Assembly (NCBI GenBank): GCA_964639335.1
Contig: CAZXCJ010000002.1
Span: 1-48,664, forward strand
Direction: 5' to 3'
Source: an uncultured Gammaproteobacteria bacterium
Lineage (GTDB): Bacteria; Patescibacteriota; Patescibacteriia; UBA1558; S5-K13
Length of the DNA stretch: 48,664 bases
The notes beneath the pieces are model-generated. The model was given only the letters and a program-made list of their open reading frames with translations. It was not told where the DNA came from and did not search any database. The position numbers were made by a program, and so were the translations under genes. Of this stretch, positions 2,291 through 47,800 are shown in pieces (within the stretch, counting starts at the first letter, position 1; every line of letters starts with the position of its first letter).

Positions 2291-4465
2291 TTACTCTAAA
2301 TGCACATCATTAGAAATTTGAGAGATTTTATCCTTAAGTAAAGGATATTTTTTTAATTCTGGGTCTTCGGAAAATATTTTTTCCACCCAGATTCTAACTT
2401 TTTTATTTAATTCTAAATCAGACAAGTCGGCAATCTTAATTTGACTTAAAAATCCAGACTGGGTAGTGCCATAAATATCACCACTGCCTCTAAATTTTAA
2501 ATCAGCTTCCGCTAACTTAAAACCATCATTAGTTTGGGTTAAAATTTCCAATCTTTTTTTGGTTTTAAAGCTAGTATTATCAGTGAATAAAAAGCAAAAA
2601 GATTGATATTCACTACGACCAACTCGGCCTCGAAATTGATGTAAAGAAGCCAATCCAAACCTATCCGCATCTTCAATCATCATAATAGTAGCATTAGGAT
2701 AATCAACGCCTACTTCAATTATTGAAGTAGAAACTAAAATTTTAGTTTTATTATTAGCAAAATTATCTAAAACGTCTTTTTTTTCAGCTTCTTTCATTTT
2801 GCCATGTAAAAAACCAATTTCTAAATTAGGAAAGACCTCATTATTTAATTTTTCATATTCGGTAGTAACTGATTTAACTCCTAATTTATCAGATTCGTTA
2901 ATTAAGGGGCAGACTACAAAAACTTGGTGGCCTTTTTTAATATGATTGTAAATAAATTCGTAGGCCTTAGCTCTGTTTTTTGGTTCAACTAATTTTGTAA
3001 TGATTTCTTTGCGTCCCAGCGGCTTTTCTTTAATTTGAGAAATGTCTAAATCGCCGTAAATACTTAAAGCCAAAGAACGAGGGATGGGAGTAGCGGTCAT
3101 AGATAAAAAATGAGGTGATTTACTGTTTGAGGCGGGTTTTTTTCCGCCAGAGGCGGATCCGCCTCTGGCGGATAATAATTCATGTCTTTGTTTTACCCCA
3201 AAACGATGTTGTTCATCAACAACAATAAGGCCTAATTTTTTAAACTGAATATCTTTTTGAATTATAGAATGTGTACCAATAATGAATTTGATTTCTCCTT
3301 TATTAATTCTTTCAATAAGTTTCTTTTTACTTAATGTTTCGGCCCGCTTCGCCGTAGCTTCAGCGAGGCGAGCTATTTCTTTTTTACCATTATAAACTCG
3401 CCTGTCTTTATTAGTAAAGAGGGCGATAGTGATATTTTCTTTTTTTAGATATTTAATAATATTTTTAAAATGCTGTTTAGCTAAAATTTGAGTAGGAACC
3501 ATAAAAGCAATTTGGTATTTATTTAAAACAGTATTATAAGCAGATATTAGGGCAACGATTGTTTTTCCAGAGCCAACGTCTCCTTCTAATAATCTATTCA
3601 TAGGTACATTTTTTTCTAAATCTTGTAATATTTGCCAAGCAGATTTTTTTTGATCTGTTGTTAATTTAAATGGCAGAGATTGGACAAATTTTTTAATTTT
3701 ATTTTCTTTAAATTCAATTTGTATGGCTTTATTTTTTTGATTATCTCTTTTAATTGATTTGGCCAAAGAAATTAAAATAAATATTTCATTAAAGGCAATT
3801 CTTTTTTTAGCTTGTTTTAATTTTTTTTCATTGTCAGGAAAATGAATTTGTCTAATGGCCTCGTCTAAAACTAATAGATTTTCTTTTTTTCCCGCGAACG
3901 GGATCCCGCTTTGCGGTGATAATATTTCTTGAGGAAGCCATTCTTTTAAAAGATATGTTGCCGGTAAGCAGGTTTTTATTAAATAGCGAATTTGTTTTTG
4001 ACTCAATCTTTCTGTACTGGGATAAATTGGTACAATTCTAGCAGTGTGAGCTGTTTTATTGCTTATTTTTTCATAGGCAGGGCTAACAAAAGAATAACCC
4101 AGCAGGCTTTTTTTAACTTTCCCAGAAATAAATATTTTATCGCCAGGACGGATATTTTTAATAATAAAAGGTTGATTAAACCAAACAATCTGTACTTGTC
4201 CAGTTTCATCTTCTAAAAGGGCTTCAGTAATATTCATGCGTCTGGTTTTGGCTCTTTTATTATTTATCAAACTTATTTTACCCTGAACGGTTGTTGTTTC
4301 ATCGTCTTCTAATTCAGCAATTTTTTTGATTTTAGAATAATCGTCATAGCGAAAAGGATAATAAAAAAGAATGTCCTCGACTTTATTTAAGCCCAATTTT
4401 TGAAGCTTTTTGTAAATACTTGCTCCAATGCCGTAGATTTGATCTAATTTAGTATTTAAGTCCAT
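2291..4465 (-). CDS. recG: ATP-dependent DNA helicase RecG
   Basis: 724 aa with an N-terminal wedge/OB region, Walker A GDVGSGKT, VVDEQHRFG, MTATPIPRSL and HQFRGRVGR. It carries three short GC-rich in-frame inserts (see findings). Confidence 0.95.
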   Translation of the reverse strand: MDLNTKLDQIYGIGASIYKKLQKLGLNKVEDILFYYPFRYDDYSKIKKIAELEDDETTTVQGKISLINNKRAKTRRMNITEALLEDETGQVQIVWFNQPFIIKNIRPGDKIFISGKVKKSLLGYSFVSPAYEKISNKTAHTARIVPIYPSTERLSQKQIRYLIKTCLPATYLLKEWLPQEILSPQSGIPFAGKKENLLVLDEAIRQIHFPDNEKKLKQAKKRIAFNEIFILISLAKSIKRDNQKNKAIQIEFKENKIKKFVQSLPFKLTTDQKKSAWQILQDLEKNVPMNRLLEGDVGSGKTIVALISAYNTVLNKYQIAFMVPTQILAKQHFKNIIKYLKKENITIALFTNKDRRVYNGKKEIARLAEATAKRAETLSKKKLIERINKGEIKFIIGTHSIIQKDIQFKKLGLIVVDEQHRFGVKQRHELLSARGGSASGGKKPASNSKSPHFLSMTATPIPRSLALSIYGDLDISQIKEKPLGRKEIITKLVEPKNRAKAYEFIYNHIKKGHQVFVVCPLINESDKLGVKSVTTEYEKLNNEVFPNLEIGFLHGKMKEAEKKDVLDNFANNKTKILVSTSIIEVGVDYPNATIMMIEDADRFGLASLHQFRGRVGRSEYQSFCFLFTDNTSFKTKKRLEILTQTNDGFKLAEADLKFRGSGDIYGTTQSGFLSQIKIADLSDLELNKKVRIWVEKIFSEDPELKKYPLLKDKISQISNDVHLE
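3131..3171. repeat. GC-rich hairpin module inside recG, kept in frame
   Basis: Contains hairpin ggcgg-gttttttt-ccgcc followed by the perfect 22-nt palindrome ccagaggcggatccgcctctgg. It encodes ...ARGGSASGGKKPAS... in a variable loop just before the MTATPIPR motif. Confidence 0.7.
3891..3919. repeat. GC-rich module inside recG, homologous to the one inside smpB
   Basis: The sequence cccgcgaacgggatcccgctttgcggtga encodes SPQSGIPFAGK. Nearly the same DNA lies at 42940-42989 in smpB and encodes SPQS..SGIPFAGK. Confidence 0.8.
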
Positions 4466-5103: not shown

Positions 5104-5685
5104 ATGGAAACTATTAAAAATTTAACCAAGGCCTTTATTGGGGAGAGCCAGGCTAGGAATAGGTATACTTTTTATTCCAAAATAGCCAAAAAGGAGGGTT
5201 ATGAAAAAATTGCGGCTATTTTTGAATTAACCGCCAATCAGGAAAAAGAACATGCCAAATGGTTAATGCGAATGATTAATGAATTAAAAGAAAAATTAGA
5301 CAATGCTACTGAATATGATGAAATTAAAGTTGAGGCTGGGTGTCCTACAATTTTAAAAGACACAATAAATAATTTAAAGGCGGCCATTGCTGGAGAGAAT
5401 TATGAACATACTGATATGTATCCTACTTTTGCTGATAAGGCAGAGGAAGAAGGTTATCTGGAAATTGCTCAAAGGTTGCGAGCCATAGCTAAAGCTGAAT
5501 CTTTTCACGAAGAAAGGTATCAAAAATTATTAGGCGAATTAGAAAATAAATCAGTTTTCAAAAAAGAAGAAAAAATATATTGGGTTTGTCATAATTGTGG
5601 TTATATTCATGAAGGAGAAGAAGCTCCCGAAGAATGTCCTTCTTGCTCACATCCTCGGGCCTATTTTGAGGAAAAATGTATTTAA
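5104..5685 (+). CDS. rbr: Rubrerythrin
   Basis: Ferritin-like di-iron domain with E..H motifs ([15 protein letters not shown]) plus a C-terminal rubredoxin-like CHNCG...CPSC. Confidence 0.9.
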
Positions 5686-5741: not shown

Positions 5742-6209
5742 ATGACTAAGAAAAGAGAAATTTATAAATGTGAAATTTGTGGAAATATTATAGAGATTCT
5801 GCATGTTGGTGTTGGAGAATTAGTTTGTTGTGGGCAAGCTATGAAATTAATGACTGAAAAAACCCAAGACGAAAATCAAGAGAAGCCCGCCGACGCTACC
5901 TCCTTCGATAAATCTTCGGAGGTCAGGAAAGCTTTGGCGGACGGGCATTTGCCAGTTATTGAAAAATTACCAGACAATGTTTGCCGAGGTGGAGATGGAA
6001 TTATTGTTAGAGTCGGAGAAATTGCTCATCCCATGGAGGAAAAACATTATATTGAGTGGGTGGAAGTAAAAACCAAAACTGGTAAAATTGGTAAGCAATT
6101 TTTAAAACCAGGAGATAGTACAGAAATGGAATTTCAAACCAGGGACGATATAGTTGAGGTTAGAGTTTATTGTAATCTGCATGGTTTGTGGGTTAAAAAG
6201 ATTGATTAG
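5742..6209 (+). CDS. dfx: Desulfoferrodoxin (2Fe superoxide reductase) carrying a 20-aa in-frame insert
   Basis: N-terminal desulforedoxin-like CEICGN...VCCGQAMKLM, and a C-terminal neelaredoxin domain with HLPVIE, HPMEEKHYIEW and CNLHGLW. Confidence 0.9.
   Translation: MTKKREIYKCEICGNIIEILHVGVGELVCCGQAMKLMTEKTQDENQEKPADATSFDKSSEVRKALADGHLPVIEKLPDNVCRGGDGIIVRVGEIAHPMEEKHYIEWVEVKTKTGKIGKQFLKPGDSTEMEFQTRDDIVEVRVYCNLHGLWVKKID
5886..5945. repeat. 60-nt GC-rich module inserted in frame in dfx
   Basis: Codons 49-68 (PADATSFDKSSEVRKALADG). The DNA shares ccgataaatcttcggagg and tcaggaaagct.tggcgg with the intergenic island at 43305-43437. Confidence 0.8.
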
Positions 6210-18780: not shown

Positions 18781-19158
18781 ATGAGTAAAAAATATTTAAC
18801 AATAGATGATATTAGTTCTTATAAGATTGCTTATGATTTATCTAATTATGTTTGGAATGTTGTTATTAATTGGAATTATTTTGCCTTAAAAACTATTGGT
18901 AATCAATTTGTAAGATCTATTGATTCTATATCTGCTAATATTGCAGAAGGTTTTGGGAGATATAATAAAAAAGAAAAGATTCATTTTTATCGTTATAGTC
19001 AGGGTTCGATTATTGAATCAAAAGATTGGAATGCAAAAGCAAGGGCAAGGTCTTTATTAAAAGATGAGGAGGATCAATATATCTGTGATAAATTAACTAA
19101 GTTGCCAAAGGAAGTTAATACTTTGATAAAATTTACTAGAGATAAGCTTTCGGAGTAA
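18781..19158 (+). CDS. Four-helix-bundle protein of the 23S rRNA intervening-sequence / Avd family (orphan copy)
   Basis: SIDSISANIAEGFGRYNKKEKIHFYRYSQGSIIES matches the family core (..siaaNIAEG.gR.s.kef..Fl.iA.GS..E). Confidence 0.8.
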   Translation: MSKKYLTIDDISSYKIAYDLSNYVWNVVINWNYFALKTIGNQFVRSIDSISANIAEGFGRYNKKEKIHFYRYSQGSIIESKDWNAKARARSLLKDEEDQYICDKLTKLPKEVNTLIKFTRDKLSE

Positions 19159-19300
19159 ACTGTTAAACTGTTAAACTGCTAAACTGCTAAATTGCCAAAT
19201 TGCCAAATTGCTGAATTTTAACAATATAACCATTTAACCATTTAACAATATAACCATTTAACCATTTAACAATTTAGTAACCATTTAACCATTTAACCAC
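19157..19300. repeat. AT-rich tandem word repeats (AAACTGYT, AAATTGCC, AACCATTTA; period 8-9)
   Basis: The repeats fill the whole spacer between stop 19158 and ATG 19302. The AAACTGCTAAATTGCC flavour also precedes the 18781 gene. Confidence 0.85.
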
Positions 19301-19301
19301 T

Positions 19302-20015
19302 ATGGACAAAAAATTTATAGTATTGATAATCGTAATTTTATTAATCGCCGTCGTATATATAATAGTAGGTGATTTGAAAAAAACAAAAGAAATAGAGGTT
19401 GTAAAAGAAAGCGCTATTGAAGAAGCTGAAGAAGACATTGATTCTACTATCAATTATTTTAATTCCCATTATAATTTTTCTGTAGATGTGCCGATAGGTC
19501 TTAAGTATTGTTTAAATGATTTTTGTGATGATAGTGCTCAAGATAAAGATGTTAATTTTAAAATTACAGCTTATAATTTTTTAGAGTATCAAAATATTGA
19601 GATTACTGAAGAAATTTCAACATATCCATATTTAGAAATAAGACCTCGTAAAAATTTACTTGGTATGTCGGCAATTGATTTTGCTAAGCGTTCTCTTGAT
19701 TTTAACCGAAAATATAGTAAGAATTTTAAGGACACATATTCACAGGAAGAAAAAATTGTATTTGCTGGTGAAGATGCCTATTCATTTATTGCTGAGAAAG
19801 GTTTTGAGGAAAGGGGGGCTTTGGTTGATGACGAGGGGGCAAAGGATTCTCCAAAATTTTATGAAACCGCTGGGGAAGGCACCCTTTTAGAATTACCTCA
19901 TAAGATAATTTATTTGGATCATGATGGCATTATGTATCGAATCATATATCCAATTGAAAATGAAATAGCAGTGGATATTATAGATTCGTTTAAATTTATT
20001 GAACCTACTGAATAA
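19302..20015 (+). CDS. Hypothetical N-terminally anchored protein
   Basis: 237 aa with one N-terminal TM helix and no recognisable motif. Confidence 0.5.
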   Translation: MDKKFIVLIIVILLIAVVYIIVGDLKKTKEIEVVKESAIEEAEEDIDSTINYFNSHYNFSVDVPIGLKYCLNDFCDDSAQDKDVNFKITAYNFLEYQNIEITEEISTYPYLEIRPRKNLLGMSAIDFAKRSLDFNRKYSKNFKDTYSQEEKIVFAGEDAYSFIAEKGFEERGALVDDEGAKDSPKFYETAGEGTLLELPHKIIYLDHDGIMYRIIYPIENEIAVDIIDSFKFIEPTE

Positions 20016-20040
20016 TATAATTATATATTAGTTTTTCAAC

Positions 20041-20210
20041 TTAAACTGTTAAACCGTTGAACTGTTGAACTGTTGAACTGTTGAATTGTTTTAAATTGCT
20101 TTAATAATTTAGTAATTTATTCTAACCATTTAACAATTTAACCATTTAACAATTTAGTAACCATTTAACCATTTAATAACAATTTAACAATTTAGTAACC
20201 ATTTAACAAC
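20041..20210. repeat. AT-rich tandem word repeats (AACTGTTG period 8, then AACCATTTAACAATTT period 8-9)
   Basis: cttaaactgttaaaccgttgaactgttgaactgttgaactgttgaattg ... aaccatttaacaatttaaccatttaacaatttagtaaccatttaacc... Confidence 0.85.
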
Positions 20211-20338
20211 TTAATATAAGAAGGAAAAGCGATTTATTCACCAGTCAGAGATTTTGTCTTTGACATAATGTATTAACTTAAGGGCCGTATTTTTGCGGTC
20301 CTTTTTAATTTAATGAAAACAACCCATGGAGGTTTAAG

Positions 20339-24591: not shown

Positions 24592-24664
24592 TTTTATTAA
24601 ATTGTTGAATGGTTACTAAATGGTTAAATTGTTAAATGGTTAAATGGTTAAATGGTTAAATTGT

Positions 24665-24722
24665 CGAAGATCCCGAGTTTATCGAGGGATCGAAGACCCT
24701 GAGTGGGTGAAACGAATCGAAG
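24665..24722. repeat. 58-nt GC-rich insert, identical to 39762-39819, flanked by 11-bp direct repeats GGTTAAATTGT
   Basis: cgaagatcccgagtttatcgagggatcgaagaccctgagtgggtgaaacgaatcgaag. The direct repeats are at 24654-24664 and 24723-24733. Confidence 0.85.
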
Positions 24723-24851
24723 GGTTAAATTGTTGTATGATTTTTATCAATATAACAATTAAGCCATAGAATAATATAACGATTTATTGTTAGTTGTAAA
24801 TTGTCTGCTTGCCGGTAGGCGGGGTAGGCGGGTTTATTGGTAATTGAAAAT

Positions 24852-30158: not shown

Positions 30159-30259
30159 ACCCCGTTAGAAATTTAGGTTTTAGCGGGAATACAAAATTAA
30201 ATTAAATATAAATATGGACAAGAAAAATAACACAATCAATAAGGGCTTTCTAACGGGGT
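30159..30259. mobile_element. 101-bp MITE-like element with 13-bp perfect terminal inverted repeats ACCCCGTTAGAAA, enclosing the start codon of the DGR target gene
   Basis: Arms lie at 30159-30171 and 30247-30259. The interior shares atacaaaattaaattaa with the ligA-proximal copy. The ATG at 30214 lies inside the element, and the right arm encodes FLTGF. Confidence 0.65.
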
Positions 30260-33200
30260 TTAAAAATAAAAAATTAATTGTATTTTTAGCGGTAATTGTT
30301 GTTTTAATTATTGGTTTTGCAATTGTAAGCGCTACCGGTGGTTTTGGATTTTTTGGTGTTTCAGCTCCAAGTTCAGGTGGTGGATTAGTGGGGTATTGGA
30401 GCTTAGCGGAGTCAGACCTCTACGATACAGATATATTTCAAGACCTTAGCGGTAATGGAAACAATGGAACTTCTGCTAATACTCCTGTTTATGTATCTGA
30501 CCAAGCAGGTGTTCCTAATCAAGCAATGACTTTTAATGGAACTACTGATGCAGTTAATTGTGGAAGTGGAACTACTATTGATGACATTTTTGATTCTGGT
30601 GGAACTGCGAGTGCTTGGATAAATCCGAGTAGTGATGGGGAAGGAGGTTATGGAAAGATATTCAGCAAATGGACTGGTTTTTCTTTTGATACCAGAGAAG
30701 AATCTGGGGGAGATGTAAAAATTAGTTTTAATTATGATTTTGATGGTGCATCAGATGGTCGTTGGGCAACTGCAACAGCAATAATTCCTATAAATACTTG
30801 GACACATATAGCAGTTAATTATGATTCTGATGCAGCTGCTAATAATCCTACTTTTTACATAAATGGTGTTCCTTATACTGTTGCAAGTGGATTAACAGAA
30901 GCACAGACTCCCATAGGGACAAGAGTTTCAGATGCTGGAGCAACTTTATATTTAGGTAATAATGCTGCTACTGTTTTTACCTTTGACGGCTCTATCTCTG
31001 ACGTTATGCTATTCTCTTCAACCCTCACAGAAGACCAAGTTAGACAACTTTATTTATCTGGTAGGACTACTGCGAGAATAAAAGTGGATGCGAGGGAGTT
31101 GATTACTAATGGTGATTTCGCTACTGATAGCGATTGGGATAAAGCTAATGGAGCAACAATAGCTGGTGGTGTAGGTATATTAGATAACACAAATGCATCA
31201 TCTTTGTCTCAAACAGGCATAATAGTTGTTGGAAAAAAATATTTATTAAACTATGAAGTAGTATCAACAGATTTGTCTGGTGGAACATTTAGGATAAGTG
31301 GAATGGAAACGACAGCACTTACAAATGCTGTTGGAAAATATAATAGGGTTATTACTGCTACTGGGACATATTTACGATTTATTGCTTTTGATAATACTTC
31401 TGGAACTTTGGAATTAGATAACATTTCAATAGTAGATATAACAAACGCTATTACTCCTAAACTCCAAAAAGGTTTAATACTTGATATGCCTTTGAATAGT
31501 AGATATACAGAAGCAGGAAGTGGACTTATAACTGGTGATGATTCAACATTTGATAGTGATACTGGAAATTGGACTAAAGGAACTGGATGGACTATTGGAG
31601 GTAATGTTGCTTCTTGTAGTGGAGCTCAAAGTGCTTATAGTAATTTATTATATGCTGATATTTTAACATTAGGACATAGATATTATATAACGGCAGATAT
31701 CACAAGAACAGCTGGAACTATGTATGTTAAAGCTGGTACTAGTGGTAATTACGAAACAATAACTTCTAATCAAAGTATAGCATTTATTTCTACTGCTACT
31801 GGTAATGATGATTTATATTTTCAAGCAAATGCAGATTTTATTGGAACTGTTGATAACATAATAGTAAAAGAACTTGACGGCATAACTAAAGACCGAACCC
31901 CACAAGGAAATGATGGAACAGTAAGTGGAGCTACAATTAAATATGATGGGTTAGTAAATGCTGGTGCTGGTATTGCTTATATAAATCAAGACAAGGCTTA
32001 TGGCACTTTTGAATTTTCGGTTAATAAAGGAGCTGATGGAAATTTACATTATACTGAATTTATTGCAGATTCAAATGATAAAAGTGGAGATGGTTATTTT
32101 TTTTATGTATCTAATACTGAAGCAGTTAGATTGTATAGAAGGGATGATGGTTCAGGTACGATAATAATGTCGTCTGCAGATTCTTATGTAACAATAAACA
32201 CTGATTATCGTATTAAAATAACTCGTTCTCTCGCTGGTGTATTTACTGTTTACATCAAAGGTGGTGCTTTTGGTTGGGATGATTGGACAACTGTTGTGGC
32301 TGATAGCGGTTCTAATCCTGTTACAGATAACACTTATACAACTTCAAATTACTTAGTAGCAGACCTTGATAGTGGCGACACAATTTCTAATCTCAAAATA
32401 GATAGTAAAAGAATAAGTCTAGCAGGTGCAGTTCAAAGCACAGGGACTTGGACATTAACAGGAGACGCTTATGATTTTGATGGAACAGATGATTACATCT
32501 CAATAACTGACACAGATGATTTAAGTTTTGGAGATGGGACAGATGATAATCCTTTTTCAATAAGTAGCTGGGTTTATATAGACGATGCTACTAATTTTAA
32601 TATAATAAGCAAGGGGATTTATAATACCGACGGGGAATGGAGATTTTATTCAGGAGCAGATGATAAAGTATATTTTCAGTTTTATGATGAAAGTGTTGCT
32701 GATACTTATGTAGGCAGAATGTTTAATACCGCTTTAACTGAAGGAGAATGGGTTTCTTTAATCGCAACTTATAGCGGAGACAGCACTAGTGATAGTAATT
32801 CATTTTTTCAAGATGGAATTAAAATTTATTTAAATGGCAATAGAGCAGACAATACTGACGTTGAATCAGGAGCTTATGTGGCAATGGAAAATCTTGACCA
32901 TAATGTATGGCTGGGGAGATATAATACAGATTATGCTAATGGTCAAATAAGAGATATTAAAGTTTATAATAGAGTATTAAATAGTGGAGAAATTCAGTCA
33001 TTGTCAGAAAATTACACAGATTGTCCGTCAGATATGGTATGGGTAGATTATGCTTGGACTTGGCAATCAACTACTTGGAGTAATAGGGGCGGATTTTGTA
33101 TTGATAAATACGAAGCTTCAAATGGCGGAGGAGCTTATTATGTTGATATAAATGGCGACGGTGATATTCTTGATACAGCGGTTGATGTTTATGGCGATGG

Positions 33201-33852
33201 CACTACTTTTAATGAGACCACAGCAACCGCAAAAGCAGTTTCAGAATATAATGCTAATCCTTGGATTTCTATCAATCAAGTAAACGCCAAGGCAGCTTGT
33301 TTAGCCGCGGGCAAGCGTTTAGCCACAAATTATGAATGGCTTTTAGCTTCAAAAGGAACGCCCGATCCGCATACTTCAGTTCCTGCCACAGGCACAGAGT
33401 CCTGCCAAATATGGAATACTGGTGCTTGGCCTGATTATTCAGGGAAGAAACCAGATGGTTCTACTTGGACAGATAGTCCAGCAGGAACAAATTCTATAAA
33501 GACAGGCACTGCTGTTAATTGCGTTTCAGATGCAGGAGCTTATGATTTAATCGGCAATGTTTGGGAATGGACTGATAATGTAATCAATGGAGGGCTTCAT
33601 CCTGTTACTGGTGCTGCTTTGCCTGCTCAGAGTTATATCACTGGTTTAGATGTTTATGGTATCCCAAGTTCTACTGGTTCAGCTACCACTAATTATAATT
33701 ATGACCATTTTTGGATTAACGCCGTTGGTTATCGTGGCTTCATCCGTGGCGGCATTTGGGATCTTGGTTCGGCTGCCGGCCTCTTTGCCCTGCACCTCAA
33801 CTACGCTCCGTCCATTACGAGCTTCACCCTTGGCTTTCGCTGCGTCCGCTGA
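30214..33852 (+). CDS. DGR target protein: membrane-anchored, multi-LamG/lectin-like protein with a C-terminal FGE-sulfatase/C-type-lectin-fold variable domain
   Basis: 1212 aa with an N-terminal TM helix. LamG-like modules are present (MTFNGTTDAVNCGS...WTHIAVNYD...LYLGNN...FDGSISDVMLF; FDGTDDYISI...WVSLIATYSG...VWLGRY...IRDIKVYNRVL). The C-terminal CLec fold shows FCIDKYEAS, RLATNYEWLLASKG, YDLIGNVWEWTDN and RGG.W....GFRCVR. The last 118 nt are the VR. Confidence 0.9.
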   Translation: MDKKNNTINKGFLTGFKNKKLIVFLAVIVVLIIGFAIVSATGGFGFFGVSAPSSGGGLVGYWSLAESDLYDTDIFQDLSGNGNNGTSANTPVYVSDQAGVPNQAMTFNGTTDAVNCGSGTTIDDIFDSGGTASAWINPSSDGEGGYGKIFSKWTGFSFDTREESGGDVKISFNYDFDGASDGRWATATAIIPINTWTHIAVNYDSDAAANNPTFYINGVPYTVASGLTEAQTPIGTRVSDAGATLYLGNNAATVFTFDGSISDVMLFSSTLTEDQVRQLYLSGRTTARIKVDARELITNGDFATDSDWDKANGATIAGGVGILDNTNASSLSQTGIIVVGKKYLLNYEVVSTDLSGGTFRISGMETTALTNAVGKYNRVITATGTYLRFIAFDNTSGTLELDNISIVDITNAITPKLQKGLILDMPLNSRYTEAGSGLITGDDSTFDSDTGNWTKGTGWTIGGNVASCSGAQSAYSNLLYADILTLGHRYYITADITRTAGTMYVKAGTSGNYETITSNQSIAFISTATGNDDLYFQANADFIGTVDNIIVKELDGITKDRTPQGNDGTVSGATIKYDGLVNAGAGIAYINQDKAYGTFEFSVNKGADGNLHYTEFIADSNDKSGDGYFFYVSNTEAVRLYRRDDGSGTIIMSSADSYVTINTDYRIKITRSLAGVFTVYIKGGAFGWDDWTTVVADSGSNPVTDNTYTTSNYLVADLDSGDTISNLKIDSKRISLAGAVQSTGTWTLTGDAYDFDGTDDYISITDTDDLSFGDGTDDNPFSISSWVYIDDATNFNIISKGIYNTDGEWRFYSGADDKVYFQFYDESVADTYVGRMFNTALTEGEWVSLIATYSGDSTSDSNSFFQDGIKIYLNGNRADNTDVESGAYVAMENLDHNVWLGRYNTDYANGQIRDIKVYNRVLNSGEIQSLSENYTDCPSDMVWVDYAWTWQSTTWSNRGGFCIDKYEASNGGGAYYVDINGDGDILDTAVDVYGDGTTFNETTATAKAVSEYNANPWISINQVNAKAACLAAGKRLATNYEWLLASKGTPDPHTSVPATGTESCQIWNTGAWPDYSGKKPDGSTWTDSPAGTNSIKTGTAVNCVSDAGAYDLIGNVWEWTDNVINGGLHPVTGAALPAQSYITGLDVYGIPSSTGSATTNYNYDHFWINAVGYRGFIRGGIWDLGSAAGLFALHLNYAPSITSFTLGFRCVR
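33733..33850 (+). other. DGR variable repeat (VR)
   Basis: Ungapped 118-nt match to 35110-35227. There are 14 mismatches, all at TR adenines, and it ends at the stop codon. Confidence 0.92.
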
Positions 33853-33895
33853 ACCCCGTGAGATAGAGCTCGCAGAGCTCGCTATCTCACGGGGT
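33853..33895 (+). promoter_or_regulatory. Strong hairpin immediately 3' of VR (candidate DGR target-recognition cruciform)
   Basis: accccgtgagatag / ctatctcacggggt form a 14-bp stem, with an inner 6-bp GAGCTC stem and a 3-nt loop. It starts 1 nt after the stop and is followed by GTGAAGGGG. Confidence 0.7.
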
Positions 33896-33960
33896 GAAGG
33901 GGTTTAAGATTTTAATCTATAATCTAAAAATCTGATATTTAAATTACCTCACCCCAATTC

Positions 33961-34110
33961 GCCTCACCCCAAACCCCTCTCCATTTTTTTAAGAAAAATA
34001 GAGAGGGGCACAGGCAAAATGTCGTTATAAAATATTTAGTACATTAATTAATATTCGAGTAAGCGCCTTTCTCCTTCAGGGTCGAGGGAGAAGGGATGGG
34101 GATGAGGGAG
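33961..34110. repeat. About 150-bp two-hairpin repeat element, copy A (upstream flank of DUF559)
   Basis: gcctcaccccaaacccctctccatttttttaagaaaaatagagaggggca ... ctccttcagggtcgagggagaagggatggggatgagggag. Homologous to 34481-34640. Confidence 0.7.
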
Positions 34111-34130
34111 TCCATAGGATAAAAATATTT

Positions 34131-34481
34131 ATGACCAAAAAAGAAAAAATATATATTGCTAGAAAATTTAGAAAAAATCAAACTACAACCGAACAAATAA
34201 TTTGGGAAAAATTAAGAAATAGGCAATTAATGAATTTAAAATTCAGAAGACAATATTTAATAGAAGGATATATAGTTGATTTCTATTGTCCAAAGTTGAA
34301 ATTAACTATAGAAATAGATGGACCGATTCATTCAAGACAGGTTAAAGAAGACAAACAAAGACAAAAAGACATAGAAGAAAAAGGAATAAGATTTATTAGA
34401 TTTAAAAATAAGGATGTGCGATATAATCTTAAAGAAGTATTAAAAAAATTAAGAGTGTTTATTAAAAAAATAAGTAAATAG
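34131..34481 (+). CDS. DUF559 endonuclease-like protein inserted between the DGR VR and avd
   Basis: RKNQTTTEQIIWEKLRNRQLMNLKFRRQYLIEGYIVDFYCPKLKLTIEIDGPIHS. Confidence 0.85.
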   Translation: MTKKEKIYIARKFRKNQTTTEQIIWEKLRNRQLMNLKFRRQYLIEGYIVDFYCPKLKLTIEIDGPIHSRQVKEDKQRQKDIEEKGIRFIRFKNKDVRYNLKEVLKKLRVFIKKISK

Positions 34482-34640
34482 CCTCACCCCAAACCCCTCT
34501 CCATTTTTTTGAGAAAAATAGAGAGGGGCACATACCTAATCTGTTTATTACTGTTTGTAAATATTTATGTGTAATTAATGGATATACAAGTAAACGCCCC
34601 TCTCCTTCAGAGTTGAAGGAGAGGGGGTTGGGGGTGAGGC
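34481..34640. repeat. 160-bp two-hairpin repeat element, copy B, with about 22-bp terminal inverted repeats
   Basis: Starts gcctcaccccaaacccctctcc and ends ggagagggggttgggggtgaggc. Internal hairpins are cccctctcc-att..-agagagggg and cccctctccttca-gag-ttgaaggagagggg. Its first base is the last base of the DUF559 stop codon. Confidence 0.75.
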
Positions 34641-34681
34641 AGAGATTAACAGTGCGTGAAATTACAAAATAACATTTATGC

Positions 34682-35029
34682 GTGAAAAATATGCTCTATG
34701 ATTTAACAATTTTCCAAAAAGCTTATGATTTTCTGTTATGGATAAAGCCGACAGTTCAAAGATTTACTAAAGTTCATAAATATAGTTTGGGGATTGAATT
34801 AGAAAAAGAAACAATAGAGCTTTTAAAACAGATTGTAAGAACCAATTTTAAAAAGGATGATAGAAAAAAGGACATAGAAGAGTGTTTTGTTCATTACGAA
34901 ATAATTAAGATTTTAATTAGAGTATCCAAAGATTACCATCTTTTGAATTTAAAGCAGTACGAGTTTGCCTCTCAAAAATTAGACGAGATAGGTAAATTAC
35001 TTGGTGGTTGGTATAAAAAATTTTCATAG
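34682..35029 (+). CDS. avd: DGR accessory variability determinant (Avd-like four-helix bundle)
   Basis: About 112 aa and basic. KAYDFLLWIKPTVQRFTKVHKYSLGIELEKETIELL...LGGWYKKF fits the Avd / 23S-IVS family, and it is positioned immediately 5' of TR. The likely start is the ATG at 34691. Confidence 0.8.
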   Translation: MKNMLYDLTIFQKAYDFLLWIKPTVQRFTKVHKYSLGIELEKETIELLKQIVRTNFKKDDRKKDIEECFVHYEIIKILIRVSKDYHLLNLKQYEFASQKLDEIGKLLGGWYKKFS

Positions 35030-35050
35030 CTATCTATTTTATTTAGATAG

Positions 35051-35082
35051 ACCCCATTAGATAATTTCATATCTAACGGGGT
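35051..35082 (+). promoter_or_regulatory. Hairpin 28 nt upstream of TR, related to the post-VR hairpin
   Basis: accccattagat / atctaacggggt form an 11/12-bp stem with an 8-nt loop, followed by GTGAAGGGA. The post-VR hairpin is followed by GTGAAGGGG. Confidence 0.65.
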
Positions 35083-35109
35083 GAAGGGATTAAATCAATA
35101 AGTGGCACG

Positions 35110-35227
35110 CGTGGCTTCATCCGTGGCGGCAATTGGAATAATGGTTCGAATGCCGGCCTCTTTGCCCTGAACCTCAACAACGCTCCGTCCAATACGAACA
35201 ACAACATTGGCTTTCGCTGCGTCCGCT
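35110..35227 (+). other. DGR template repeat (TR)
   Basis: Intergenic 118 nt rich in AAY codons. In the VR frame it reads RGFIRGGNWNNGSNAGLFALNLNNAPSNTNNNIGFRCVR. Confidence 0.92.
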
Positions 35228-35426
35228 TCAGTGGTTATTATAATAAACTTGCTAGAATTTCTATTCTTTATGTAGATAGAGAGAGAGCACTATAAACCCC
35301 AGATTTTATTCCTTTTTTCTGTTTTAGAATTGCAGGGGAAAAATATTAAGGCTTTTGGGATTGGCTTGTATTAGTAATTTTTTTGAGTGAAAATTCAGGT
35401 CAATCCGCCGAGTCTTTAAAATTAAA

Positions 35427-42629: not shown

Positions 42630-43151
42630 TTAAATATGTAATTTATATTTTTGATCAAGTTTTCTTTTTAAATCCTTTTTTTTCATATCTTCTCGCTTGT
42701 CATATTTTTTCTTACCGCTGGCTAAAGCAATTTCTATTTTGATAAGATTGTTTTTAATAAAAATTTTAGTGGGTACAATGGCATAGTTTTTTTGATTAAG
42801 GAATGTTTTTAATTTTATAATTTCTTTTTTGTTTAATAAAATTTTTATATCTCTGCCTGGTTTATGTTTGATTGTATTTAGATTTGATTTTTTATATTTG
42901 GGAATTTTTATATTTGTTAAATAGGCCTGATTATTTTTTCCCGCAAACGGGATCCCGCTTGTCCCGCTTTTGCGGTGGCTCTGCGGTGATATTTTAATAA
43001 AAGAACCATCTAAATTTATTTTTTGACTTTTGATTGATTTAACTTCATCACCGAATAAAATCATACCAGCTTTAAAAGTTTCTTTAATTTGATAAAGGTG
43101 GTTTATTTTTTTATTTAGAGCGACAATTTTATTTTCAGGTTTTTTAAGCAT
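42630..43151 (-). CDS. smpB: SsrA-binding protein SmpB carrying an in-frame GC-rich insert
   Basis: NKKINHLYQIKETFKAGMILFGDEVKSIK...ILLNKKEIIKL...IEIALASGKKKYDKRED plus a basic C-tail. Confidence 0.9.
   Translation of the reverse strand: MLKKPENKIVALNKKINHLYQIKETFKAGMILFGDEVKSIKSQKINLDGSFIKISPQSHRKSGTSGIPFAGKNNQAYLTNIKIPKYKKSNLNTIKHKPGRDIKILLNKKEIIKLKTFLNQKNYAIVPTKIFIKNNLIKIEIALASGKKKYDKREDMKKKDLKRKLDQKYKLHI
42940..42989. repeat. GC-rich module inside smpB (homologue of 3891-3919 in recG)
   Basis: cccgcaaacgggatcccgcttgtcccgcttttgcggtggctctgcggtga encodes SPQSHRKSGTSGIPFAGK. Confidence 0.8.
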
Positions 43152-43304: not shown

Positions 43305-43437
43305 GTTGCCCTCCTGCGCTACCACCTACGTTAAAACTTCCTCCTCCGATAAATCTTCGGAGGATAAATCGGAGGTCAAGAAAGCTACGGCGGGCCACGT
43401 TTGACGTGGCAGGCAGGCAAGTTGCAAGGTGGGTGTG
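43305..43437. repeat. GC-rich hairpin island (long version of the dfx insert)
   Basis: ...cctcctccgataaatcttcggaggataaatcggaggtcaagaaagctacggcgggccacgtttgacgtggcaggcaggc... Confidence 0.8.
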
Positions 43438-44450: not shown

Positions 44451-44823
44451 GTTGTATAATTATTAGTAGAAAGGGGCTTTATTGGGAGGGGTAAAAAAGA
44501 TAGATTTTTATAGTTTTTATACTCAAAATGGGGGGTTTAAAAAAGCGTTAAAAAATAAAAAAAATTATTAGTTTTTTCTCAAAAAAATAAAAACAAAAAC
44601 AAAAACAAAAACAAAAAATAAATCCCTACACCTTTTTGAAGAAAGGGTGAGGGATAAAAAATAAAAACAAAAATAGAAGTTATTTTGTTTTTTTGTTTTT
44701 TATAAAAAGCTTAATATAGATTAAATAAGCTAAAAATAGAAATAAACCCTCAAACACCTTTATAAGGTGTGGGGGTGAATCCCTACACCTTTTTAAAAAG
44801 GTGAGCGGATAAAAAGGTTTCCC

Positions 44824-47800
44824 ATGCAACCCACAAACCAAAAAGAAAATATTTCTGAAGAAAAGTTAATTTCTTTAGCTGAAGCAGCTGAATATTGTTC
44901 GTATTCTCAGGACTATTTATCTCTCCGAGCAAGGCAGGGGAAACTTAAGTCAGTAAAAAGAGGTCGAAATTGGTTTACCACTAAAGAATGGTTAGAGGAG
45001 TATGAAGGATATATCCCTCTGGCCCAAGCAAGCGAACATTGTTCATACTCTCAAGATTATTTATCTCTTCGCGCTCGCCAAGGAAAACTTAAAGCAATTA
45101 AATTGGGGCGCAACTGGGTAACTAAAAAAGAATGGGTTAGAGAATATGAAAAACAAAATTCAGATTTTAAATTAGAAGAAGATGGAGATTGGAAGCCAAT
45201 AGAAAAAAAAGAAATTCAAGACGAAGAAGTTTTGGAACATTTAGATAATTTGGAAAAAGTTTCAGCAAAAGGATCTGCAAAAGATTTAGAATCTTCAAAA
45301 TTATTAAAACCGATAAATTTAAAAGATGGCTGGGCCAATCTTTTTTATTCTACAAAAAATTTATTTTTAGATCTAGGACATTATTTTTCTAATTTAAAAT
45401 TAAAGAAATTAGCAACTGATAAAAAATTACCTCGCTTTAAATTTAATAACTATTCTTTAGATCAATTTTTAAGGTCTTTAAATTTTAGCGTTGCTCTTTT
45501 AATTATTTTTATATCTTTAAGAACCATTACTCCAATTGCTTTAGGTTTTTATGAAAATCAGGGTGGCGATTTAAAAAATTTATTATCTAGGTCTTCGGAA
45601 AAAATAATTTCAGTTTCTAATAATACTTTTCAAAATATTAGTTATCAACTATCAAATTTTAATGAAGATTTAGTTCAGAGGTACCGCGAGCTTCCTGAGC
45701 AAATTAATTTAAGCTATTTGGTTTTAAAAAATAATTTAAAGAATTTAGATTATTCATTGAGAGAAAGGTTTAATATTTTTGATTTAGAAAAAAAACAATT
45801 TGATGTTTCTAAATTATCTCAAATCGGATTAGATATAGTATCTTATAGTGATGCCTCTAAAATATTATTGGACAGAGATTCTATTTTAGATGAAAATGCA
45901 AAAAGTGAGGTTTTGGGGGTTAGTGAAGAAAATGTTTTAGTTTCTGAAGATTATTTTTCTAAAAAAGGAATTATTTCTCGGTTTTGGGGACTCTTTAATA
46001 AAATAAATTCTTATAGAGAACTTCCTGAAAAAATTTCTAAGGAATTGGCTCAAAAATCATCAGATATAAATTTGGCTTTTTGGAAAAATCTATTAGGGGC
46101 CTTTAAAGATATTTTAAATATTGGGGAAACTCAATATGCTATAAAACAAGTACCCTTAGAATTAGGAGGGGCACCAATTGTTGTTAAAAATTATTATACT
46201 ACCGACTCAGGACAGATGATTGAAGTTAAGGGAGAAAGGGGAGAGCGGGGTCTTTTGGGACAAGAAGGTCCCCCCGGCCCCGAAGGTTCGCAAGGGCCAC
46301 CGGGAGAGAGAGGTCCTTCTGGAAGCGGTGGAGGAGGAACAACAATAATTCAAGGCGCTTCTTTAGACGGAAACAATACATGGACGAATACAAATACATT
46401 TACAGCCCAAGTTCTCATGAAAGACCTTGGGGTTTCGCGTTATTTGGGTAGTAGATATTTATCAGTAGCTGATGCGCTTTCTGTTCAAAGCGATGAAGAA
46501 GGAGGAATGGTTGTTAATGCAGACGCTACTTTTAACGACCCAGTAATTTTTAATGATACAGTAGATATAATAGGGGCTTTAAGTTTAACTGGCGATTTAA
46601 ATTTAATCGGCAATGAAACAATTTCGGGAAATTTAGAAGTAGGCGGCAATTTAGATGTTTTAGGAATTGGGACATTTGCTACATTCACAACTCCTTATGA
46701 TAATGTGATTACAGTTGCTAAAAGCGGTGGGGACCATGTAAGCATTACGGATGCTTTAAATTCCATTACAGATAATTCTAGCACGAATAAATATTTAGTC
46801 AGGGTAATGCCGGGCATATACACAGAGTCGGTGATTATGAAAGAATATGTAGATTTAATTTCCGAGGGTGGTAGAGAGGTTACAGAAATTACTCAGGCAG
46901 ATGCTGGATTGATTACTGCAACTTCTTCATCACGAATTGAGGGTTTTGCTTTGTCAATTAGTGACTTGGGCTCTATAACAACGACCACAAAAAACATTAT
47001 TACAATAGCAACCAGCACAAGTCCTTATATTGCAGATTGTAAATTAGAATTAGATTCCAGTACCACTACTATCGGTTATGGCATAGCTGTAATTACTGGC
47101 AGTCCTATTTTTGAAAATTTAGAAATGAGTGGCAATGCTTTGGCTAGAGGTTTAAGTTTAACCGGAGTCGGAACTTCTACAATAATGAATTCAGTCATCA
47201 CTGCTACTGAAGATGATTTATATGCCAGCGCTGGAATTATAAAATCAAAATATAATAGATTGCTTGGTTCTAATAATAATATTACTACTTTGGCCAGCGC
47301 GATTATTGAAACAAGCTTTGATGAATATAAAACAACTAATATTGCTGACTCTAATCAATTTCATCATTATGCTTTTGGGGCCACTCCTTCTACTACAGCT
47401 CCGAGTTTGTTAATCCAACCGCAAGGCACGACTAGTTTTGATACTACAACTACAACATATTTAATGGTAAATGCCTCATCTGGTTTTGATGGGAATCTTT
47501 TTGATTTGCAGGTTGATGGTACGACTTTATTTAGTGTTGATTCTGATGGAAATGTTTTTCAAGTTGCTTCTTTCAACAGCGATTTAATTCCTTTATTTGA
47601 TAATACCTTTGATGTTGGCAGCGAGGTGGCTAGATGGAGAAGAGGATTTTTTTCAGATTATTTACAAATATCCAAAGACGACAAAACAGCAACTAGTACT
47701 TTTGATTATAACAATATTTCAACTCAAGCTACAGATTTTACTATGCAGACGGCAGCAGGTTATGATTTGAATTTAGTCTCGGGAGATGATTTAGAAATTA

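What the first reader, a model, noticed from the sequence alone, without database searches (positions are those of the whole stretch)
5886..5945. A repeat module is inserted in frame exactly between the Lys and His of the E-K-H-x-P active-site motif of desulfoferrodoxin
Superoxide reductases carry a conserved EKHVP loop: Glu47 and Lys48 sit next to the His49 iron ligand (D. baarsii numbering), and P. furiosus has GEKHVPVIE.

Here the protein reads ...QE47K48-[PADATSFDKSSEVRKALADG]-H69LPVIEK. The 60-nt bracketed segment is GC-rich, partly palindromic (cctcc-ttcgataaatcttc-ggagg), and is a short version of the intergenic island at 43305-43437.

The frame and all other ligand motifs (HPMEEKH, CNLHG) are intact. 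A 20-residue loop splitting the catalytic Lys from the iron-ligand His is either a remarkable case of structural tolerance or a silent inactivation of SOR, in an organism that also keeps rubrerythrin next door.
Basis: partly seen in the sequence, partly recalled or inferred. Interest (0 to 1): 0.72.

Follow-up and report, generated by a model that had tools for sequence, protein, structure and literature searches.

The report
Hairpin repeat translated inside superoxide reductase
A 60-base GC-rich hairpin repeat, one of a family scattered through this tiny AT-rich bacterial genome, sits in frame at the active-site loop of a superoxide-detoxifying enzyme, and the gene has stayed under purifying selection; this resembles the "selfish DNA inside genes" known from Rickettsia and yeast mitochondria.

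Summary
The dfx ORF (5742-6209) has 60 extra in-frame bases (5886-5945). They are 59% GC against 34% for the rest of the gene and lie between the Glu47-Lys48 pair and the His49 iron ligand.

The segment is repeat-derived. Its core hairpin matches the intergenic island at 43340-43363 (23/24). It belongs to a clade-specific family of nested GC-rich hairpin modules. Other families of similar GC-rich hairpin repeats are also read through in frame in RecG, SmpB and a reverse transcriptase in the same window.

The insert is not unique to this genome. Relatives at 61-97% identity carry 30-, 60-, 72- or 84-nt versions at the same site, and other close relatives carry none. All lengths are multiples of three.

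- Outside the insert, dN/dS is 0.11-0.27.
- AlphaFold keeps the SOR fold and predicts the insert as a disordered loop.
- The hairpin, not the peptide, is conserved, through compensatory changes.

Tolerance is therefore favoured over silent inactivation.

One nuance matters. Most alleles end in ...D-K-H, which recreates an acid-Lys-His motif. Only the window lineage reads D-G-H.

I rate it a new variant of a known kind, closest to Rickettsia RPEs and yeast mitochondrial GC clusters.

The parts
5742..6209 (+). dfx gene (2Fe superoxide reductase / desulfoferrodoxin), 155 aa, carrying the insert
   Evidence: ORF; Pfam PF06397 + PF01880; PDB phmmer E = 3e-33 to D. baarsii SOR; AF2 model with target-normalised TM 0.87-0.91 to 2ji2/1vzg
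5886..5945 (+). 60-nt in-frame GC-rich insert encoding PADATSFDKSSEVRKALADG (residues 49-68)
   Evidence: Absent from solved SORs and from close relatives L002-L004 and L082. The 63 nt between the Glu47 and His codons are 59% GC against 34% for the rest of the gene. pLDDT is below 50 for residues 49-66.
5887..5893 (+). 5' arm of the outer stem (CCGCCGA), pairing with 5934-5940
   Evidence: RNAfold MFE; pairs kept across alleles, with three pair types at one position
5934..5940 (+). 3' arm of the outer stem (TTGGCGG)
5899..5922 (+). Nested core module CCTCC-TTC-GAT-AA-ATC-TTC-GGAGG
   Evidence: 23/24 identical to 43340-43363. The same architecture occurs with complementary variants in L081 (GCT/AGC) and L163 (GTT/AAC).
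5883..5885 (+). AAG codon (Lys48) at the 5' junction; possible target-site copy
   Evidence: Insert-free alleles read GAA AAR|CAT. Insert alleles read AAR|...|AAG CAT.
5943..5945 (+). GGG codon (Gly68) at the 3' junction. It is AAG (Lys) in all other insert alleles and is changed only in this lineage.
5946..5948 (+). CAT codon of His69, the iron ligand equivalent to His49 of D. baarsii SOR
43305..43437 (+). Intergenic multi-module GC island. It holds a longer relative of the insert, with the same arms and core module plus extra nested pieces.
   Evidence: no Rfam family at gathering score, and the tmRNA hit lies elsewhere
41198..41221 (+). Further copy of the basic module (CCTCC-TAC-GCC-AA-GGC-TTC-GGAGG), intergenic, next to the tmRNA gene
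42333..42356 (+). Further copy of the basic module (CTCTC-TAC-GTC-AA-GAC-TAC-GGGAG), intergenic
5104..5685 (+). Rubrerythrin gene directly upstream; the rubrerythrin-dfx-fpg order is conserved in relatives

Best explanation
The 60-nt segment is a copy of a lineage-specific family of short, GC-rich, nested hairpin repeats. The basic module is about 24-30 nt: a 5-bp GC stem, a 3-nt internal loop, a variable 3-bp stem, and AA. Modules of this family form intergenic islands in this AT-rich Patescibacteria genome; other families of GC-rich hairpin repeats also sit in frame inside genes.

One module landed beside the AAG (Lys48) codon of dfx, and a second module is nested in its loop.

The insert is transcribed and translated as an unstructured 20-residue surface loop. 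It sits on the naturally mobile Glu47-Lys48 lid next to the His49 iron ligand. The enzyme keeps its fold and all metal ligands, and it remains under purifying selection.

In the ancestral form the 3' junction read ...Asp-Lys-His, so an acid-Lys-His motif stayed next to the iron. The window lineage later changed that Lys to Gly.

The hairpin itself is kept palindromic and GC-rich. The most likely cause is gene conversion or re-templating from other genomic copies. The palindrome is also unstable, giving 12-nt tandem expansions, a 30-nt hairpin gain or loss, and precise loss.

Shown: the site, the repeat kinship, the allelic series, frame conservation, purifying selection, the predicted disordered loop, and compensatory changes.

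Inferred: that the insert is translated, that the enzyme is active, the mobility or conversion mechanism, and the order of events.
For: - **Site and intact ligands:**
- **Repeat kinship within the genome:** E about 3e-6 to the 43340 copy. L081's own dfx insert has a perfect 20-nt match (22/24 over the whole module) to an L081 intergenic copy.
- **Module family:** four GC-rich copies in the window. Density is 5.4 per 100 kb in the clade against 0.47 per 100 kb in about 1.07 Mb of unrelated loci.
- **Same habit in other genes:** RecG has extra segments of 10, 21 and 14 aa, and SmpB one of 17 aa, relative to solved homologues. The RecG and SmpB copies share 26/27 nt.
- **Allelic series at the same site:** 30, 60, 72 and 84 nt, all multiples of 3 and without stop codons.
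- **Selection:** dN/dS outside the insert is 0.11-0.27 at dS 0.3-1.3; inside it is about 0.8-1.9.
- **Structure:** AF2 mean pLDDT is 83, with the insert below 50, and target-normalised TM is 0.87-0.91 to D. baarsii SOR.
- **Hairpin covariation:** 94% of cells are paired, six pairs changed on both sides, 0/500 shuffles reach this, and slid controls give 27-48%. RNAalifold finds the same structure on its own.
- **Not an artefact:** the allele is identical in independent assemblies.
- **Recent instability:** L081 and L001 differ only by a 12-nt repeat unit, with dN = dS = 0 elsewhere.
Against: - There is no direct evidence that the insert is present in the mature protein or that the enzyme is active.
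- The window allele has lost the His-adjacent Lys (DGH), which all other alleles keep. In D. baarsii SOR this Lys is catalytically important (Lombard et al. 2001, title cited in PMC3116461; the magnitude is from my own knowledge).
- dN/dS is somewhat higher in insert-bearing pairs (0.18-0.27) than in insert-free pairs (0.07-0.09). This could reflect mild relaxation of selection.
- No transposase or other mobilising enzyme was found in the window.
- Target-site duplication is ambiguous.
- Presence and absence do not fit one gain on the gene or flanking-gene trees. The history needs several losses, several gains or recombination.
Confidence: 0.7

Rival explanations
1. The insert silently inactivates, or is inactivating, the enzyme. 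It displaced Glu47 and Lys48 from the iron. In the window lineage the back-up Lys next to His was then lost, so the gene is on its way to becoming a pseudogene while rubrerythrin covers oxidative stress.
For: - The window and P0001 read D-G-H where every other allele, with or without the insert, has K-H.
- The Lys column is at least 90% conserved in 121 SORs.
- dN/dS is slightly higher in insert-bearing pairs.
- Rubrerythrin is adjacent.
Against: - dN/dS between the window and other insert alleles is 0.11-0.25.
- All nine metal ligands, the frame and the fold are intact.
- The allele is identical on 24 contigs from many samples.
- Natural SORs without this Lys exist. The Ignicoccus hospitalis enzyme has Thr there, as shown by the PDB entry for its T24K mutant. 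By my recollection of the literature it is active.
- The time since the K-to-G change is too short to test that branch: 9 differences, all in a 5' recombination patch.
Confidence: 0.12
2. The hairpin is a selected, functional element inside the coding sequence. It could be an mRNA structure that pauses ribosomes between the two metal-binding domains or sets mRNA stability. Alternatively, the peptide loop could itself be adaptive, for example as a gate for the active site. On this view it is not merely tolerated.
For: - The hairpin is kept by compensatory changes over dS above 1.
- Of the 16 differences between the window and L163 inserts, 10 lie in five pairs that changed on both sides and stayed paired, by my own reading of the pair tables.
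- G-U pairs are tolerated on the sense strand.
- The insert stays GC-rich (0.47-0.59) in genomes of about 30% GC.
- It sits just after the inter-domain linker.
Against: - Close relatives do well without it.
- The short alleles lack the inner hairpin.
- The peptide is not conserved.
- Each insert resembles other copies in its own genome, which points to gene conversion rather than selection in place.
- Similar GC-rich hairpin repeats (of other families) sit in unrelated genes, and copies of the dfx-type module lie in intergenic DNA.
Confidence: 0.13
3. The insert is not in the protein. Either it is removed from the mRNA, or the ribosome hops from the AAG before it to the AAG after it and restores E-K-H. 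Yeast mitochondrial GC-cluster 'byp' elements and T4 gene 60 behave this way.
For: - Matching AAG/AAR codons flank the insert in six of the eight alleles.
- A strong hairpin lies directly after the putative take-off codon.
- GC clusters in Magnusiomyces mitochondrial genes are bypassed in translation (PMC8811140).
Against: - Every allele is a multiple of 3 (30, 60, 72, 84 nt) and has no in-frame stop. That pattern is expected only if the insert is read.
- The window allele lacks the matching landing codon (GGG).
- 60 nt is too short for a group I or group II intron, and there is no Rfam hit.
Confidence: 0.03

Closest known systems
GC clusters of yeast mitochondrial genomes, including the in-frame clusters in var1
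   Same: Both are short GC-rich palindromes in a very AT-rich genome. Both are mostly intergenic but also give in-frame length polymorphism in a protein gene. In both, clusters merge or nest into composite clusters, gene conversion between copies occurs or is suspected, and short terminal direct repeats ending in AG are seen. (PMC8811140; here.)
   Different: Here the host is a bacterial chromosome, not an organelle. No sequence relationship was tested. The insertion is at a catalytic motif of an enzyme rather than in a ribosomal protein. The AAG...AAG terminal repeat is only suggestive.
Rickettsia palindromic elements (RPEs)
   Same: Both are dispersed palindromic repeats found in intergenic DNA and in frame inside many unrelated housekeeping genes of a small AT-rich bacterial genome. 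Both are old enough to be shared by related species, and the host proteins are thought to stay functional. (PMC10969869; PMC1779305.)
   Different: RPEs are 100-150 bp and encode a conserved peptide. Here the modules are 24-30 nt (60 nt when nested), the peptide is not conserved, and the hairpin is kept by compensatory changes. The phylum also differs (Patescibacteria).
REP / BIME elements of proteobacteria
   Same: Both are 20-40 bp GC-rich stem-loops clustered in mosaic intergenic islands (PMC3733652 abstract).
   Different: REPs are extragenic and carry a GTAG or CGTC tag, and they are tied to RAYT transposases. No such tag is shared by the copies here (my reading of the sequences). No RAYT-like gene was found in the scanned ORFs. 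Copies here also lie in frame inside genes.
Natural SORs that lack a residue of the E-K-H motif (Ignicoccus hospitalis, no Lys; Nanoarchaeum equitans, no Glu)
   Same: They show that the Glu or Lys next to the His ligand is not indispensable. The sources are the PDB entries 4bk8, 4brj (T24K) and 6gq8 and the title of Rodrigues et al. 2008 in the reference list of PMC3116461.
   Different: Those are point substitutions in 1Fe-SORs. Here a 20-residue loop is inserted in a 2Fe-SOR, and both residues are displaced or replaced (D-G-H).

Membership tests
2Fe superoxide reductase (desulfoferrodoxin) | N-terminal desulforedoxin-like domain with four Cys (CxxC...CC) | tested here: met
   PF06397 E = 1.4e-18; C10, C13, C29 and C30 are invariant
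2Fe superoxide reductase (desulfoferrodoxin) | Centre II ligands: four His and one Cys (H49, H69, H75, C116, H119 in D. baarsii) | tested here: met
   H69, H96, H102, C144 and H147 align to them; PF01880 E = 4.9e-17
2Fe superoxide reductase (desulfoferrodoxin) | Contiguous E-K-H-x-P loop | tested here: not met
   It reads E47-K48-[insert]-D67-G68-H69-L-P. Orthologues with the insert read ...D-K-H-L-P.
2Fe superoxide reductase (desulfoferrodoxin) | Superoxide reductase activity | not testable with these tools
   Only indirect evidence: purifying selection and an intact predicted fold
Rickettsia palindromic elements | Interspersed repeats of 100-150 bp | tested here: not met
   The insert is 60 nt and the basic module 24-30 nt. 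RPE size is taken from PMC1779305.
Rickettsia palindromic elements | Palindromic, and present both between genes and in frame within genes | tested here: met
Rickettsia palindromic elements | Sequence similarity to an RPE family, with a conserved encoded peptide | not tested
   No RPE models were on hand. The peptide here is not conserved (dN/dS about 0.8-1.9).
Mitochondrial GC clusters | Short GC-rich palindrome in an AT-rich genome, with in-frame polymorphism in a coding gene | tested here: met
   59% GC in a 32% GC window; allelic series of 0, 30, 60, 72 and 84 nt
Mitochondrial GC clusters | Terminal direct repeats (AG or TAG) taken as target-site duplication | tested here: inconclusive
   AAR...AAG flanks the insert in six of the eight alleles, and AAG...GGG in the window. 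Too few copies have known empty sites.
Mitochondrial GC clusters | Resident in a mitochondrial genome | tested here: not met
   The context is a bacterial chromosome: RecG, LigA, GatCAB, SmpB, tmRNA
REP / RAYT system | GTAG or CGTC tag at one end of the palindrome, and a RAYT transposase in the genome | tested here: not met
   The copies share no common tag (my reading of the sequences). No Y1 transposase appears among the ORFs scanned, but only 48 kb of the genome was seen.
Programmed translational bypass (T4 gene 60, byp elements) | Matched take-off and landing codons around a gap that would otherwise break the frame or carry a stop | tested here: not met
   Matched AAG codons occur in most alleles, but all inserts are in frame and free of stops, and the window has AAG/GGG

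The most novel reading that the evidence does not exclude
The nested hairpin is not passive junk. On this reading it is a selected nucleic-acid element working inside coding sequences of these ultra-small bacteria. It could be recognised by a genome-encoded factor that also homogenises the copies, or it could make ribosomes pause or even hop AAG-to-AAG at the domain boundary. Either way, the active-site loop of SOR would be a programmable, rapidly length-variable site.
Probability: 0.1. Interest if true: 0.85.

Novelty: new variant of a known kind. Interest (0 to 1): 0.6.

Why it matters
Enzymology: it is a natural experiment. A 2Fe-SOR has had 10-28 extra residues beside its iron ligand for a long time (dS above 1), and one lineage has replaced the 'essential' Lys with Gly. 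This is directly testable with recombinant proteins.

Genome biology: it suggests that Patescibacteria, which have minimal genomes, host a system of nested GC-rich hairpin repeats. These invade surface loops of core proteins (SOR, RecG, SmpB, a reverse transcriptase), much as RPEs do in Rickettsia and GC clusters do in yeast mitochondria. I found no description of this for the group in the searched literature.

Annotation: such inserts split domain hits, and they create strain-level length polymorphism in proteins.

Tried and rejected
- **Known RNA at the island:** Rfam at gathering score finds only tRNA-Asp (39092-39165; ARAGORN 39089-39165) and tmRNA (41295-41718). Nothing matches at the insert or at 43305-43437.
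- **WOR-3 loci L040, L073 and L152:** their roughly 690-nt matches looked like large inserts in dfx. They are an upstream desulforedoxin-like gene joined to the hit, with no insert.
- **More insert-bearing alleles:** a profile search with the insert region found none; all 23 hits lack the insert.
- **Mobilising enzyme:** Pfam scans of 29 ORFs found none. The only mobile-element-like genes are a DGR reverse transcriptase and a DUF559 endonuclease-like protein.
- **Single-gain test:** dfx, rubrerythrin and Fpg NJ trees do not make the insert-bearing alleles monophyletic. Bootstrap values were not displayed and the trees are short, so gain against loss stays open. My first insert-length labels were wrong for four rows: window and L168 should read 20, and L085 and L087 should read 0.
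- **Literature:** searches for this phenomenon in CPR/Patescibacteria gave nothing relevant. The key RPE paper (PMC186582) is not held. A search for Lys48/Glu47 papers found none in the library.

Full report
**1. The observation**

The window is 31.9% GC. ORF 5742-6209 (+) encodes a 155-aa protein. It has a desulforedoxin-like N-terminal domain (PF06397, residues 2-37) and the SOR catalytic domain (PF01880, residues 66-152).

phmmer against all PDB sequences aligns residues 1-48 with residues 1-48 of Desulfoarculus baarsii SOR. It resumes at query H69 = H49. The 20 residues PADATSFDKSSEVRKALADG (nt 5886-5945) have no counterpart.

The four Cys of centre I and the four His and one Cys of centre II are all present.

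The region between the Glu47 and His codons (the insert plus the Lys48 codon) is 59% GC against 34% for the rest of the gene. The insert folds into a long imperfect hairpin of -32.2 kcal/mol, z = -2.9.

The exact protein is found on 24 contigs from JGI, ENA, Logan and NCBI assemblies. The gene DNA is identical in the four I compared.

**2. The insert is repeat-derived**

The central 24 nt (5899-5922, CCTCC-TTC-GAT-AA-ATC-TTC-GGAGG) matches 43340-43363 in the intergenic island at 23/24, E about 3e-6 to 8e-6. The next 18 nt match at 17/18. The flanking arms align at 12/15 and 16/23.

The island is not a known RNA. Rfam finds only tRNA-Asp and a tmRNA, the latter at 41295-41718.

A structural scan gives four GC-rich copies in the window, all on the + strand: 5899, 41198, 42333 and 43340. 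They share one plan: a 5-bp stem, T-N-C, a 3-bp stem, AA, the 3-bp complement, T-T/A-C, and the 5-bp complement. Their inner stems differ but remain complementary (GAT/ATC, GCC/GGC, GTC/GAC).

The plan occurs at 5.4 per 100 kb in loci of this clade and 0.47 per 100 kb in about 1.07 Mb of unrelated loci. None of the outside hits has the characteristic internal loops.

The 60-nt insert is itself nested. An outer module (CCGCC-GAC-GCT...AA-AGC-TTT-GGCGG) carries the core module inside its loop. This is my reading.

**3. It is one case of a genome-wide habit**

Of 39 GC islands in the window, four with strong folding lie inside long ORFs.

- RecG has three extra segments relative to the T. maritima structure, of 10, 21 and 14 aa.
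- SmpB has a 17-aa extra segment relative to solved SmpBs.
- A reverse transcriptase has its RVT_1 hit split by another island.

The RecG (3885-3911) and SmpB (42934-42960) segments share 26 of 27 nt. Both are read as ...SGIPFAGK.... The same repeat lies between genes in L081.

The 30-nt perfect palindrome in RecG (3143-3172) recurs in relatives L082, L085 and L087.

**4. Relatives**

Among the 120 best homologues, the closest have lengths of 155, 157, 145, 143, 135 and 134 aa. Alignment and DNA retrieval give an allelic series at exactly this site.

| State | Where |
|---|---|
| no insert | L002 (labelled Candidatus Komeilibacteria), L003, L004, L082, L084-L089 |
| 30 nt | L165, L166, L167 |
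| 60 nt | window, L168, and L163, whose host protein is only 61% identical |
| 72 nt | L081 |
| 84 nt | L001, L083 |

The 72- and 84-nt forms differ by one or two extra copies of a 12-nt unit. L081 and L001 are otherwise identical (dN = dS = 0), so this expansion is very recent.

The 30-nt forms correspond to the outer module alone.

All lengths are multiples of three, and no allele has an in-frame stop.

The junctions are shared: 5' AAR-YCC-NYC-GAC..., 3' ...GAC-AAG|CAT.

In six of the eight insert-bearing alleles the protein therefore reads E-K-[insert]-D-K-H-L-P, and an acid-Lys-His motif persists next to the iron. Only the window and L168 read D-G-H (AAG changed to GGG).

MAFFT in fact aligns G68 with the Lys column.

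**5. Is the gene alive?**

Outside the insert, dN/dS between insert-bearing alleles is 0.11-0.27 at dS 0.3-1.3. Insert-free pairs give 0.07-0.09. The gene has therefore been under purifying selection long after the insertion, perhaps slightly relaxed.

AlphaFold2 with a 121-sequence alignment gives mean pLDDT 83 and pTM 0.78. Values exceed 90 over most of both domains and fall below 50 for residues 49-66.

The model superposes on D. baarsii SOR with target-normalised TM 0.87-0.91.

The insert is thus predicted to be a disordered surface loop on the lid that carries Glu47 and Lys48. From my own knowledge, that lid is mobile between redox states.

The role of Glu47 and Lys48 was studied by Lombard et al. 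2001 (title cited in PMC3116461). Natural SORs without the Lys (Ignicoccus hospitalis; PDB T24K mutant) or without the Glu (Nanoarchaeum equitans) exist.

Tolerance is therefore well supported. Activity of the D-G-H allele itself is not shown.

**6. What is conserved is the hairpin**

Inside the insert, dN/dS is about 0.8-1.9.

On the allele alignment, my nested structure has 93.8% of cells paired and six pairs with changes on both sides. No shuffle out of 500 reaches the observed pairing or covariation score, and slid controls reach only 27-48%.

RNAalifold finds the same structure independently: 17 pairs, six of them compensatory.

Of the 16 differences between the window and L163 inserts, ten lie in five pairs that changed on both sides and remain paired; this count is my own reading of the pair tables.

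G-U pairs occur on the sense strand.

Each genome's dfx hairpin also resembles another copy in the same genome more than it resembles the orthologous insert:

- window to its own island, 23/24
- L081 dfx to an L081 intergenic copy, 22/24, including a perfect 20-mer
- window to L081 dfx, 20/24

The arms, by contrast, are closest to the orthologues (3' arm 18/23 against 16/23).

I read this as vertical inheritance of the insertion plus short-patch gene conversion, or re-templating, from other copies. Gene conversion between copies is documented for yeast mitochondrial GC clusters (PMC8811140). Selection on the structure in place cannot be excluded.

**7. History**

Rubrerythrin, Fpg and dfx trees group the window with L081, L001 and L166, all insert-bearing. 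L165 (30 nt) falls among insert-free genomes. L163 (60 nt) falls outside, and its nearest relatives P0020 and P0128 lack the insert.

This requires several precise losses, or parallel events, or recombination.

- Precise loss is plausible because a hairpin flanked by GAR-AAG...GAC-AAG direct repeats is prone to it.
- Recombination is seen directly in L168. Its only differences from the window gene are nine substitutions in the first 31 nt.

**8. Comparison with known systems**

The closest analogues are yeast mitochondrial GC clusters and Rickettsia palindromic elements. Membership of either family fails on defining features: the host is not an organelle, and the elements are not 100-150 bp with a conserved peptide.

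REP/RAYT membership is not supported. There is no shared tag and no transposase was found.

Translational bypass, as in Magnusiomyces GC clusters, is suggested by the matched AAG codons. It is contradicted by strict frame conservation and by the window's GGG.

I found no report of such repeats in Patescibacteria.

**9. Verdict**

- The repeat origin is supported.
- Silent inactivation is disfavoured.
- The insertion is old, polymorphic and part of a lineage-wide system of coding hairpin repeats.
- It is a new variant of a known kind, and of moderate to good interest.

Noticed in passing
window 2291-4465 (-), islands at 3143-3172, 3330-3381 and 3885-3911: RecG carries three in-frame extra segments relative to T. 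maritima RecG. One is a perfect 30-nt palindrome (TCCGCCAGAGGCGGATCCGCCTCTGGCGGA) between helicase motifs II and III. The same palindrome recurs in relatives L082, L085 and L087.
   Followed up: partly
window 42630-43151 (-), 42934-42960: SmpB has a 17-aa in-frame insert. Its 27-nt core (TTTTTTCCCGCAAACGGGATCCCGCTT) is 26/27 identical to the RecG insert at 3885-3911. It is read in the same frame (SGIPFAGK) and also lies between genes in L081 (4173-4202, 8991-9015).
   Followed up: partly
window 30214-36725: A diversity-generating retroelement. The template repeat at 35110-35227 and the variable repeat at 33733-33850 differ at 14 positions, all adenines in the template. The variable repeat is at the C-terminus of a 1212-aa protein with Laminin_G_3 and FGE-sulfatase (lectin-fold) domains. 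The reverse transcriptase (35427-36725) is itself interrupted in frame by a GC island (36065-36192).
   Followed up: yes
window 19148-19311, 20034-20221, 24617-24734, 39722-39831: Arrays of 8-nt tandem repeats (TAAACTGY, TAACCATT) flank a PF05635 ('23S rRNA intervening sequence protein', Avd-like) gene at 18781-19158 and the ORF 19302-20015. A 103-nt repeat is shared by 24632-24734 and 39729-39831 at 97% identity.
   Followed up: no
window 41295-41718 (-) and 39089-39165 (-): The tmRNA gene lies about 900 nt from smpB, and tRNA-Asp lies nearby. Both are embedded among multi-module GC islands (38055-38277, 38892-39068, 39224-39338, 41241-41344).
   Followed up: partly
window 5967-5993 (dfx residues 76-84): A second segment, LPDNVCRGG, is extra relative to D. 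baarsii SOR. It contains a Cys and is shared by all Patescibacteria-type relatives. It is not GC-rich and does not look like a repeat. It is a clade feature and not part of the finding.
   Followed up: no
L168 20-50: The 97% allele P0001 differs from the window gene only by nine substitutions in the first 31 nt. They give the N-terminus of the L081 type (MTKQNQIY). This is a recombination mosaic between lineages.
   Followed up: partly
window 44797-48664, GC-rich stretch 46217-46359: A very long ORF (more than 1289 codons) runs off the end of the window. It contains a collagen-like Gly-X-Y stretch (GERGERGLLGQEGPPGPEGSQGPPGERGPSG).
   Followed up: no
L082 617-642: The RecG-type 30-nt palindrome lies inside the called gene 50-778 (PF23477 zinc-finger protein) of a relative. 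This may be another in-frame case in a different gene.
   Followed up: no
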